From a virus (lineage: Duplodnaviria; Heunggongvirae; Uroviricota; Caudoviricetes): DNA of 64,000 nucleotides. The notes beneath the pieces are model-generated. The model did not search any database. It saw nothing but the letters and a program-made list of their open reading frames with translations, and was not told the DNA's origin. This document shows positions 18,187-19,002 of the stretch, piece by piece. How positions within the stretch are numbered: position 1 is the stretch's first letter; the number at the start of each line of letters is the position of its first letter. The position numbers were made by a program, and so were the translations under genes. The stretch is taken from the IMG/VR virus record IMGVR_UViG_2778261540_000003; one strand, written 5' to 3'.

Positions 18187-19002
18187 TTAGCCAAGGCGCT
18201 TACGGCGCAGTTTCATTGACTTTTTGCGGGCAAGTTTTGCCGCGCCGGTCTGGGCTTTTCGACGCGCTTTTTTCAGCGCCGATTTTTGAGCCGCAGTCAG
18301 ACGTTTTTTACGCAGGCGTTTACGGATGAGTTTGATCTCACCGTTACGAACAACCTTCTTAAATGCTTCAGTCAGCATTTCATCAGAAGTGCCAGCAACA
18401 ACAAACGCCGCTTCCAGTTCGTCGCGGTCGTCGCTATCTAAACCAGCGATAGAGGCACCAACATCAGCAGCTGCGTCGTCGTCTTCATCGTCAGCCAGTG
18501 CTTCGATCAGGTCATCATCTACACCGCATGCTGCGAGGAAGTCAGCAACATTTGCCCATGCTTCGTTATAGGCATCGTCCTGTTCTTCTGTAACTTCGGA
18601 GTCGTCGTCATCAGAGATACCAGCGATAGCCTGAACGAAACCATCAAGGGAGTCGAAAGTCAGATCACCGCTATCAGCCCAGGCGAAAACGGCGTCGGCC
18701 GCATCACTCAACGCATTTTGCATAGCACTTCGATTTGCAGCTTCCAGAATCATCTGGTGCGCCTGTTCGACGGTCCATTCTTTACCGTCTTTCCCTTCCA
18801 GGATTTGCTCAGGAGCCGGGGCAGATGGAACGTTATCGTTAGTCTGTGCCGCCGGTTCCGGATTATTATTAATAACCGGATCTGTTGGCGGTTCGGCGCT
18901 TGCTCGGGCAGACTCCATCAGCTGCACAGGATCAGAGTTCAAAGCGAAACGAGACAGTCCATTCCCCAAAAATGCCCCGGATTGAAAAAAGTTTTTGCTC
19001 AT
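18187..19002 (-). CDS. Acidic protein with a basic C-terminal tail
   Basis: 271-aa ORF; long D/E-rich core followed by a K/R-rich tail (KLIRKRLRKKRL...KLRRKRLG). Confidence 0.4.
   Translation of the reverse strand: MSKNFFQSGAFLGNGLSRFALNSDPVQLMESARASAEPPTDPVINNNPEPAAQTNDNVPSAPAPEQILEGKDGKEWTVEQAHQMILEAANRSAMQNALSDAADAVFAWADSGDLTFDSLDGFVQAIAGISDDDDSEVTEEQDDAYNEAWANVADFLAACGVDDDLIEALADDEDDDAAADVGASIAGLDSDDRDELEAAFVVAGTSDEMLTEAFKKVVRNGEIKLIRKRLRKKRLTAAQKSALKKARRKAQTGAAKLARKKSMKLRRKRLG

What the first reader, a model, noticed from the sequence alone, without database searches (positions are those of the whole stretch)
18187..19002. Strongly acidic protein with a basic tail inside the structural operon
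The 271-aa product has a long D/E-rich core (DNA-mimic-like) and a K/R-rich C-terminal tail. This composition is seen in scaffold or internal proteins and in injected anti-restriction DNA mimics.
Basis: inference. Interest (0 to 1): 0.35.

Follow-up and report, generated by a model that had tools for sequence, protein, structure and literature searches.

The report
Phage P1 gene 21: a head-core protein
The acidic protein with a basic tail is phage P1 gene 21, annotated as a tail gene, but its conserved cutting sites track the head-maturation protease, so it is most likely the separate head scaffold/core protein that P1 was thought to lack.

Summary
18187..19002(-) encodes a 271-aa protein with a D/E-rich core and a K/R-rich tail, by far the most charge-segregated of 64 ORFs in the window. 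The window is a P1-type phage-plasmid and the ORF is P1 gene 21, annotated "baseplate or tail tube".

It has no Pfam or PDB match and belongs to PHROG 1053 (unknown function). It was not reported in the P1 virion by LC-MS or cryo-EM.

The key finding: gp21 carries three motifs (LME30|S, ILE87|A, LTE212|A) identical in type to the cut site determined by protein sequencing in the P1 capsid protein (MLE120|S) and to DarA's inferred site (LLE69|A70). In 62 divergent relatives the residue before the cut (E, D or A/S) switches together in the capsid protein and in gp21, at least 5 times. No column in sheath, PmgG or tube behaves this way.

The basic C-terminal module also matches the C-terminus of T4 gp68, a protease-processed prohead core protein (hhalign 89.9%, controls at most 5.5%).

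Best reading: gp21 is a prohead core/scaffold-type protein cleaved by protease Pro. It is not a tail part and not an injected DNA mimic. Cleavage and head location are inferred, not shown.

The parts
18187..19002 (-). P1 gene 21 coding sequence (271 aa plus stop)
   Evidence: ORF listing and translation. 100% identical DNA in Punavirus P1 MH422554 and 98% in NC_005856, where it is CDS '21', gp21, 'baseplate or tail tube'. PHROG 1053, unknown function.
18913..19002 (-). Predicted N-terminal propeptide, residues 1-30 (MSKNFF...VQLME). Disordered in the model and variable in the family.
   Evidence: AF2 pLDDT below 50. Coordinates verified by translation. Ends at predicted cut site 1.
18910..18921 (-). 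Predicted protease site 1: L28-M29-E30 | S31
   Evidence: Same motif type as the MCP site. The residue before the cut has the same class as in the MCP in 89% of 62 representatives.
18739..18750 (-). Predicted protease site 2: I85-L86-E87 | A88
   Evidence: Column 87 is second of 195 gp21 columns in mutual information with the MCP cut-site residue. Same class in 86% of representatives.
18367..18741 (-). Acidic body, residues 88-212 (13.0 kDa, 37 D/E, 2 K/R, net -35)
   Evidence: Charge count. Residues 78-204 form a confident helical bundle, with pLDDT of 81-95 per 10-residue block over residues 71-200. No informative fold match.
18364..18375 (-). Predicted protease site 3: L210-T211-E212 | A213, just before the basic module
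   Evidence: Column 212 is top of 195 columns (MI 1.28 of a maximum 1.48). Same class as the MCP cut-site residue in 98% of representatives. Lies in a disordered linker. Aligns with the invariant L-N-E67|F of T4 gp68.
18190..18366 (-). Basic C-terminal module, residues 213-271 (6.8 kDa, 26 K/R, 1 D/E, net +25). Predicted beta-hairpin (VVRNGEI) plus two helices. This is the most conserved part of the family.
   Evidence: Conservation. AF2 secondary structure. hhalign to the T4 gp68 C-terminus at 89.9%, E 1.7e-6, with reversed and shuffled controls at most 5.5%. Duplicated in some homologues.
20662..22368 (-). Gene 23, major capsid protein (start as annotated in P1). Reference substrate of the protease, in the same operon.
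   Evidence: Annotation. PHROG 1014. Cryo-EM papers.
22006..22017 (-). MCP maturation cut site M118-L119-E120 | S121
   Evidence: [quoted passage not shown] Position checked in the window.
22420..22438 (-). Late promoter LP23, transferred from the P1 annotation. Predicted to drive genes 23-22-21-pmgG-bplB (cotranscription inferred from gene order; no transcript data).
   Evidence: Annotated in NC_005856. The identical 38-nt stretch is found at window 22420.
19012..20601 (-). Gene 22, tail sheath (upstream neighbour, 9 nt from the gene 21 start). Context only.
17570..18151 (-). pmgG, tube-linking protein (downstream neighbour). Context only; a possible target of polarity from gene 21 amber mutations.

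Best explanation
gp21 is a prohead (procapsid) core or scaffolding-type protein. It is the P1-group counterpart of T4 gp68, not a baseplate or tail-tube component.

Proposed mechanism:
1. gp21 is made late, together with the capsid protein.
2. It is built into the procapsid interior.
3. The conserved basic C-terminal module (beta-hairpin plus two helices) anchors it to a conserved partner, most likely the inner face of the capsid shell, or later the DNA.
4. The acidic helical body fills and organises the core.
5. When the T4 gp21-type prohead protease Pro is activated, it cuts gp21 after E30, E87 and E212. The last cut sits immediately upstream of the basic module and would detach the acidic body, as the herpesvirus scaffold is released at its M-site.
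6. The fragments then leave, or are displaced, as DNA enters.

Shown here: the sequence architecture, the motif identity with the Edman-determined MCP site, covariation of the three sites with the MCP site, and profile similarity to T4 gp68.

Inferred, not shown: actual cleavage, location in the prohead, the binding partner of the basic module, and any role in head size or shape.
For: 1. The protease and its motif.
- P1 Pro matches T4 prohead protease gp21 (HHpred 99.4% to 5JBL, Table S4 of PMC9024508). T4 gp21 cuts after L/I-x-E (PMC9026906).
- Mature P1 MCP starts at S121 by Edman sequencing, so the cut is AMLE|SV.
- DarA, known to be processed, has LLE69|A70, and cryo-EM models DarA from residue 70.
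- Hdf, reported not to be processed, has no such motif; DdrA, Ulx and the 2255-aa DarB also have none. Pro itself has 7.

2. gp21 carries the motif.
- It has LME30|S, ILE87|A and LTE212|A.
- Its motif density, 1.48 per 100 aa, is the highest of 64 window ORFs (background 0.116).
- Family-wide, 154 of 194 members have the motif within 16 aa before the basic module, against 14% in shuffles.

3. Covariation.
- In 62 representatives (under 70% MCP identity, drawn from 157 sequences) the residue before the cut in the MCP (E, D or small A/S) has the same class at gp21 column 212 in 98%, column 30 in 89% and column 87 in 86%.
- There were no E/D mismatches at column 212.
- Column 212 has the highest mutual information of 195 gp21 columns.
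- Parsimony gives at least 5 changes at each site, at the same tips of an MCP tree built without the N-terminal region.
- Control: 0 of 841 columns in sheath, PmgG and BplB from the same loci reach 80% same class.

4. Similarity to T4 gp68.
- The gp21-family profile matches the T4 gp68 family C-terminus through to the very last residues: hhalign 89.9%, E 1.7e-6.
- The reversed profile scores 0.6%, and 8 composition-preserving shuffles score at most 5.5%.
- Reciprocal HMM-versus-sequence hits reach about 21 bits.
- The cut site LTE|AFKKVVRNGEI aligns with gp68 LNE|FIVKHVSARGEI.
- AF2 models of both show the same order: acidic helices, a linker containing the site, a beta-hairpin, then basic helices.
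- T4 gp68 is a prohead core protein, about 240 copies, non-essential, degraded by gp21 (PMC9958956).

5. Consistency with the P1 literature.
- No P1 scaffold has been identified.
- gp21 is absent from the LC-MS list and from cryo-EM models.
- After the three cuts almost no fully tryptic peptide of detectable size would remain.
Against: - The GenBank/RefSeq note for gene 21 is 'baseplate or tail tube'. It derives from electron microscopy of amber mutants. I could not read the primary papers (Walker & Walker 1983; Lobocka 2004). If the amber alleles were mapped by sequencing to this ORF and are non-polar, a tail-less but head-proficient phenotype would contradict an essential head role.
- The gene sits between sheath and tube-linking genes in about 27 of 30 loci, not next to portal and protease as in T4.
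- No direct evidence of cleavage or of presence in proheads exists.
- Homology to gp68 is confident only for a 56-column basic region, and the tool's run with smaller alignments gave only 45%.
- Two of the three conserved sites have weaker covariation (86-89%).
- P1's MCP already has a 120-aa cleaved N-terminal domain that others regard as the scaffold.
Confidence: 0.7

Rival explanations
1. gp21 is a non-virion tail assembly chaperone or scaffold, functionally like lambda gpG/gpGT. The acidic body would coat the basic part of the tape-measure protein Sit, and the basic tail would recruit acidic tube-type subunits. Its loss would therefore give tail-less particles.
For: - The annotation 'baseplate or tail tube'.
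- Conserved position sheath-gp21-pmgG-bplB-pmgC-tub-pmgB-sit.
- Not reported in the virion.
- Acidic, like known chaperones. Sit has a basic stretch: residues 101-400 hold 64 K/R against 32 D/E.
- The tube lumen is reported to be negatively charged.
Against: - It does not explain three motifs of the prohead-protease type that co-vary with the capsid cut site, while no column of the sheath, PmgG or tube does.
- It does not explain the similarity to T4 head-core protein gp68.
- The gene is not located between the tube and tape-measure genes; pmgB occupies that place.
- No second minus-strand ORF of at least 50 aa overlaps the gene, which argues against a G/GT-type frameshift product; slippery sequences were not searched.
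- No fold similarity to solved chaperones.
- The tail-less phenotype could come from polarity on pmgG and bplB, or from assignment of the classical gene to the wrong ORF.
Confidence: 0.12
2. gp21 is a capsid-targeted internal protein whose processed acidic fragment (residues 88-212) stays in the head and is injected with the DNA as a DNA-mimic anti-restriction or anti-defence factor.
For: - Head localisation is supported by the protease-site evidence.
- T4 and P1 both inject head-internal anti-restriction proteins.
- The fragment has net charge -35.
- The processed fragments would yield almost no fully tryptic peptide, so LC-MS absence is uninformative.
- There is unassigned low-resolution density inside the P1 head.
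Against: - gp21 is a strictly conserved, syntenic core gene in Enterobacterales, Vibrio, Desulfovibrionaceae and other lineages, unlike accessory anti-defence genes.
- There are extra protease-type motifs inside the body (E87 co-varying; LIE167|A).
- The T4 counterpart gp68 is degraded and expelled.
- P1's known Dar phenotypes are accounted for by other genes.
Confidence: 0.06
3. gp21 is a low-copy virion component of the tail lumen or baseplate that escaped detection, as the original annotation implies.
For: [quoted passage not shown]
- The tape-measure region was unresolved by cryo-EM.
- gp21 has few usable tryptic peptides.
Against: - Cryo-EM assigned the ordered tail, connector and baseplate densities to named proteins without gp21 (Sit, UpfB and the fibers remained unresolved).
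- Protease-site covariation and the gp68 similarity point to the head.
- Tail proteins are not substrates of prohead proteases (established knowledge for T4).
Confidence: 0.05

Closest known systems
T4 gp68 (prohead core protein), with its acidic partner gp67
   Same: - Acidic helical N-terminal part, then an L-x-E protease site, then a short R-G beta-hairpin, then a K/R-rich helical C-terminus ending in ...GL.
- Profile match of the C-terminal module.
- The cognate protease is of the same family.
- Neither is reported among virion proteins: gp68 is degraded and its peptides leave the head, and gp21 is not reported in the P1 virion.
   Different: - gp21 is twice as long: 271 aa against 141 aa.
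- It has a large folded acidic bundle and a disordered N-terminal region carrying its own cut site.
- The acidic parts are not detectably homologous.
- It is encoded between sheath and tube-linking genes, not next to portal and protease.
- Relatives of this family show Pfam PF26830 for gp68 in precomputed annotation but no Pfam domain for gp21 homologues.
T4 gp22 and other protease-degraded scaffolding core proteins
   Same: Acidic, helical, about 270 aa, multiple L/I-x-E sites, removed from the prohead after cleavage.
   Different: No sequence similarity (hhalign 0.3%). gp22 has no basic C-terminal module.
P22 gp8-type scaffolding proteins and herpesvirus scaffold (M-site release)
   Same: From my own knowledge, not tested here: a C-terminal basic helix-turn-helix (P22) or C-terminal peptide (herpes) binds the coat protein. 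In herpesviruses the maturation protease cuts just upstream of it to release the scaffold. gp21 has a predicted basic helix-turn-helix with a conserved cut site directly upstream.
   Different: No sequence or fold match. P22 scaffold is not proteolysed. Coat binding by gp21 is untested.
Lambda gpG/gpGT-type tail assembly chaperones
   Same: Acidic, not found in the virion, encoded among tail genes.
   Different: Wrong gene position, no overlapping minus-strand ORF of at least 50 aa that could encode a frameshift extension, no fold similarity. Carries head-protease motifs.
Ocr/ArdA-type DNA-mimic anti-restriction proteins
   Same: Very acidic helical domain.
   Different: No structural match. 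Late structural operon and core-gene distribution. Fused to a strongly basic module.

Membership tests
T4 gp68-type prohead core protein | Detectable sequence homology to gp68 | tested here: met
   hhalign of 202 gp21-family against 120 gp68-family sequences: 89.9%, E 1.7e-6, 56 columns reaching both C-termini. Reversed profile 0.6%; 8 column shuffles of the basic half at most 5.5%. Reciprocal HMM hits of about 21 bits. With smaller alignments only 32-45%. Homology is confined to the basic module and the adjacent cut site.
T4 gp68-type prohead core protein | Carries recognition sites of the T4 gp21-type prohead protease (L/I-x-E followed by a small residue) | tested here: met
   LME30|S, ILE87|A and LTE212|A. 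They are conserved and co-vary with the Edman-determined MCP site in 62 representatives. Controls were negative.
T4 gp68-type prohead core protein | Is actually cleaved by the prohead protease and resides in the prohead core | not testable with these tools
   Needs prohead biochemistry. Published LC-MS and cryo-EM neither show nor exclude it.
T4 gp68-type prohead core protein | Encoded in the head-gene cluster (portal-67-68-protease-scaffold-MCP in T4) | tested here: not met
   In the P1 group the order is MCP-(x)-sheath-gp21-pmgG-tube. In T4 it is 20-67-68-21-22-23. It does share the operon with the MCP.
T4 gp68-type prohead core protein | Influences head length or size | not testable with these tools
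   Requires a gene 21 deletion and measurement of the P1B/P1S head ratio.
Tail assembly chaperone (lambda gpG/GT type) | Gene lies between the tube and tape-measure genes, with a programmed frameshift extension | tested here: not met
   The gene lies between sheath and pmgG; pmgB precedes sit. No overlapping minus-strand ORF was found; slippery sequences were not searched.
Tail assembly chaperone (lambda gpG/GT type) | Fold or sequence similarity to known chaperones | tested here: not met
Tail assembly chaperone (lambda gpG/GT type) | Required for tail assembly but absent from the virion | tested here: inconclusive
   The annotation implies a tail defect but the primary data could not be read. 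Absence from the virion is consistent but uninformative.
DNA-mimic anti-restriction proteins (Ocr, ArdA) | Structure that mimics B-form DNA, or similarity to Ocr/ArdA | tested here: not met
DNA-mimic anti-restriction proteins (Ocr, ArdA) | Accessory, early-acting or injected factor with an effect on restriction | tested here: inconclusive
   Distribution and expression argue against it: a core syntenic gene in a late operon. Injection and the effect on restriction could not be tested.
P22-type scaffolding protein | C-terminal basic helix-turn-helix that binds coat protein; scaffold exits intact | tested here: inconclusive
   A basic helix-turn-helix is predicted. There is no homology. The conserved cut sites argue against intact exit. 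Coat binding is untested.

The most novel reading that the evidence does not exclude
After Pro cuts at E212|A213, the 59-residue, +25 C-terminal peptide is not expelled. It stays in the filled head bound to DNA as a small histone-like, charge-neutralising peptide, comparable to adenovirus protein VII/mu, and may be co-injected. The acidic body would serve as its built-in neutralising chaperone until DNA arrives. Such a peptide would be invisible to trypsin LC-MS (all fragments 7 aa or shorter) and to symmetrised cryo-EM. It would be conserved from the P1 group to T4 gp68. The duplicated basic modules in some homologues and the residue-specific conservation of the module are compatible with this reading but do not demonstrate it.
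Probability: 0.18. Interest if true: 0.75.

Novelty: new member of a known kind. Interest (0 to 1): 0.55.

Why it matters
P1 is a classical model phage and the prototype of the phage-plasmids that spread resistance genes. Two recent structural studies (2022, 2026) state that P1 has no separate scaffolding protein and do not mention gene 21.

If gp21 is a protease-processed head-core protein related to T4 gp68, several things follow:
- A 20-year-old annotation ('baseplate or tail tube', copied as 'tail tube protein' into many P1-like genomes) is wrong.
- PHROG 1053, and at least 600 protein clusters (50% identity) across many bacterial lineages, gain a function.
- P1 head assembly looks more T4-like than assumed.
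- The unexplained P1 big-head/small-head choice gains a new candidate determinant, since T4 gp68 is thought to contribute to head-size determination (PMC9026906; that gp68 mutants make isometric heads is my recollection, not checked here).

The covariation between the residue before the cut in the capsid protein and in candidate substrates is also a general, cheap way to find prohead-protease substrates.

Tried and rejected
- Pfam, NCBIfam and PDB sequence searches on the whole protein and on the basic module alone gave nothing.
- tblastn against deposited phages found only P1-like phages and D6.
- The first viral-contig scan returned only near-identical P1 copies. I had to rerun it with distant sub-family alignments.
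- I initially favoured a G/GT-like tail chaperone because of synteny, absence from the virion and the basic stretch in Sit. I demoted it once the protease-site covariation appeared.
- I considered an AF2 run of gp21 fused to tail partners. I dropped it because the tool returns no coordinates or PAE and probably rejects fusions.
- hhalign to T4 gp22 and gp67 was negative.
- Walker & Walker 1983 and Lobocka 2004 are not held, so the amber-mutant phenotype and how gene 21 was assigned to this ORF could not be checked.
- Literature searches for P1 gp21 found no functional study.
- Antisense ORFs inside the gene (for example 18326..18571 +, Ser-rich) were judged to be composition artefacts.

Full report
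**Identity and observation**

The window is a P1-type phage-plasmid. Positions 17000-22500 are 100% identical to Punavirus P1 MH422554 and 98% identical to the reference P1 genome.

The ORF at 18187..19002 on the minus strand (271 aa) is P1 gene 21, product gp21, with the GenBank note "baseplate or tail tube". It follows gene 23 (major capsid protein) and gene 22 (tail sheath). It precedes pmgG (tube-linking protein) and bplB (the real tail tube by cryo-EM, PMC10304247). All lie downstream of late promoter LP23.

The composition claim is exact:
- The protein has 50 D/E and 33 K/R.
- Residues 95-205 hold 34 D/E against 1 K/R.
- Residues 225-271 hold 22 K/R and no D/E.
- It is the most charge-segregated of 64 non-overlapping ORFs in the window.
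- The pattern is conserved in 229 relatives.

**What standard tools say**

- There is no Pfam, NCBIfam or PDB sequence match. The protein falls in PHROG 1053, 'unknown function'.
- An AlphaFold2 model built with 31 homologues gives three regions: a disordered N-terminal region (1-70), a confident acidic helical bundle (78-204), a disordered linker (210-223), and then a short beta-hairpin plus two basic helices.
- The family is large: 600 clusters at 50% identity with E at or below 1e-3.
- Its most conserved part is the basic C-terminal module of about 55 aa, with residue-specific conservation at G221, Q239, K245, A246, R259 and S262. It is therefore not a generic polycation. Some homologues carry two copies of it.

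**Context**

In about 27 of 30 loci, from Enterobacterales, Vibrio, Pseudoalteromonas, Desulfovibrionaceae and a Phycisphaeraceae MAG, the gene order is MCP-(small ORF)-sheath-gp21-pmgG-bplB-pmgC-tub-pmgB-sit.

gp21 is not among the 23 proteins found by LC-MS/MS of P1 virions (PMC9024508, Table 1). It is not among the proteins modelled from head to baseplate by cryo-EM (PMC12810830). Neither paper discusses it.

These facts first suggested a non-virion tail assembly chaperone.

**The decisive lead: protease sites**

The mature P1 capsid protein begins at S121 by Edman sequencing. The maturation cut is therefore ...K-A-M-L-E120|S-V-A-A.

P1 Pro is a T4 gp21-type prohead protease (HHpred 99.4% to 5JBL). 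T4 gp21 cuts after L/I-x-E.

gp21 contains LME30|S in its N-terminal region, ILE87|A, and LTE212|A immediately before the basic module.

The same motif type accounts for the other known P1 substrate. DarA has LLE69|A70, and the cryo-EM model of DarA starts at residue 70.

Hdf, which is reported not to be processed, has no motif; DdrA, Ulx and DarB (2255 aa) also have none. Pro itself has seven.

In the window the motif density of gp21 is the highest of 64 ORFs, 1.48 against 0.116 per 100 aa. Next come a 130-aa ORF and PmgC with one motif each, then the MCP, whose three copies all lie in the cleaved N-terminal propeptide.

**Covariation**

I collected 192 loci with gp21 homologues. Of these, 156 also carried a usable capsid gene.

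After reduction to 62 representatives (under 70% MCP identity), I compared the residue before the MCP cut with the aligned residue in gp21. Three classes occur: E, D, or small (A/S).

| gp21 column | Same class as the MCP residue |
|---|---|
| 212 | 98% (D/D 31, E/E 23, small/small 6, one A/D; no E/D mismatch) |
| 30 | 89% |
| 87 | 86% |

Examples, giving the MCP site and then the three gp21 sites:
- L120: LLLS|S, then LLLS|S, MQLS|S, MLLS|A
- L258: MLD|S, then FFD|S, MLD|A, MLD|A
- L101: MMLA|S, then LMLA|S, ISS, MMLA|A

Further tests:
- Column 212 has the highest mutual information with the MCP state among 195 gp21 columns.
- On an MCP tree built without the N-terminal 135 residues, parsimony needs at least 5 changes at each site, and they fall on the same tips.
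- As a control, none of 841 columns in sheath, PmgG and BplB from the same loci reaches 80% same class.

The simplest reading is that one lineage-specific specificity, that of the prohead protease, acts on both proteins. That places gp21 inside the procapsid.

**Link to T4**

- A profile of 202 gp21-family proteins matches a profile of 120 T4 gp68-family proteins over the basic module up to the last residues (89.9%, E 1.7e-6).
- The reversed profile scores 0.6%, and eight composition-preserving shuffles score at most 5.5%.
- Smaller alignments give 32-45%.
- T4 gp68 has the same layout: acidic helices, an invariant L-N-E67|F site, a V-S-x-R-G-E-I hairpin, and basic helices ending in GL.
- gp68 is a prohead core protein, about 240 copies, not essential for assembly, and degraded by gp21 (PMC9958956). 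It is thought to contribute to head-size determination (PMC9026906).
- There is no similarity to T4 gp22 or gp67.

**Reconciling with earlier data**

Cuts at E30, E87 and E212 would give four fragments:

| Fragment | Mass | Net charge |
|---|---|---|
| 1-30 | 3.3 kDa | 0 |
| 31-87 | 6.1 kDa | -7 |
| 88-212 | 13.0 kDa | -35 |
| 213-271 | 6.8 kDa | +25 |

After these cuts three of the four well-sized fully tryptic peptides are split, leaving only 4-18 (in the propeptide) and the borderline 38-aa 34-71, and the basic fragment yields only peptides of 7 aa or shorter. Absence from the LC-MS list therefore says little either way.

The 'baseplate or tail tube' label rests on amber-mutant EM that I could not read. 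It could reflect polarity on pmgG and bplB, both of which are genuine tail genes. It could also reflect assignment of the classical gene 21 to the wrong one of three adjacent ORFs. This remains the main evidence against my reading.

**Verdict**

- The DNA-mimic interpretation is not supported.
- The 'scaffold or internal protein' option is supported.

gp21 is best explained as a Pro-processed prohead core/scaffold-type protein related to T4 gp68 (confidence 0.7). Rivals are a tail assembly chaperone (0.12), an injected acidic effector (0.06) and an undetected tail component (0.05).

It is a new member of a known kind. The practical consequences are reannotation of a widespread family and new testable predictions for P1 head assembly and head-size control.

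Noticed in passing
window 18152-18189 (minus strand): The 35-nt spacer between the gene 21 stop and the pmgG ATG reads TAA-AGGAGG-AGGCCGGAG-AA-CTCCGGCCT-TTAACTTGA-ATG. 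An 8-bp GC-rich hairpin sits between a strong SD-like AGGAGG and the start codon. It could bring a split ribosome-binding site together, or act as an attenuator or RNA-stability element before the highly expressed tube genes.
   Followed up: no
window 16269-16932 (+ strand): A Hok/Mok-type 51-aa toxin ORF (16777-16932, annotated MokW in MH422554) and a 108-aa membrane-like ORF occupy the place where reference P1 has rlfA, rlfB and pmgF.
   Followed up: partly
L116:10015-11034 (P1 pro, outside the window): Protease Pro (339 aa) carries 7 motifs of its own cut-site type. Four lie in its C-terminal half, which gives coiled-coil-type weak Pfam hits. This suggests a protease-scaffold fusion that is self-degraded. 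RefSeq calls it 'tail fiber protein', which looks wrong.
   Followed up: partly
L281:905-2824 (P1 darA, outside the window): DarA has LLE69|A70. The published cryo-EM model starts at residue 70, which pins the previously undetermined DarA processing site to the same motif as the MCP site.
   Followed up: yes
L116:8313-10022 (P1 portal prt, outside the window): The portal has ILE560|S ten residues from its C-terminus, a possible C-terminal trimming site.
   Followed up: no
window 10876-11442 (pmgC, minus strand): The head-tail adaptor PmgC has LLE|S at residues 24-27, the third-highest motif density in the window. I did not check whether it is conserved or co-varies.
   Followed up: no
proteins P0185, P0212, P0217 (homologues): Some family members carry two copies of the basic C-terminal module. 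P0217 also has an N-terminal CxC...CxxC zinc-ribbon-like segment and an extra C-terminal domain.
   Followed up: no
L003, L005, L087, L118, L120 and window 11500-17050: Relatives have a 103-141 aa ORF between the MCP and sheath genes that P1 lacks, and a contiguous bplB-pmgC-tub-pmgB-sit block. In the window about 5.5 kb (sim-like lipoprotein ORFs, ant/kilA, repL, hok) is inserted between pmgC and bplB.
   Followed up: partly
window 9358-10239 (pmgB, minus strand): PmgB (293 aa, pI 4.8, net -19) is a second acidic protein not detected by LC-MS or modelled by cryo-EM, sitting directly upstream of the tape-measure gene. It contains a CxxC...C cluster and remains the better candidate for the tape-measure chaperone.
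   Followed up: no
window 22368-22389: The mechanical ORF for the MCP starts at a TTG 7 codons upstream of the annotated P1 start (annotated N-terminus LSNLREYQ read as Met). Residue numbering in this report uses the annotated start.
   Followed up: partly
window 18286-18571 and 18718-19191 (+ strand): Antisense ORFs inside gene 21 (one of them Ser-rich) are most likely artefacts of the GAx-rich coding strand.
   Followed up: no
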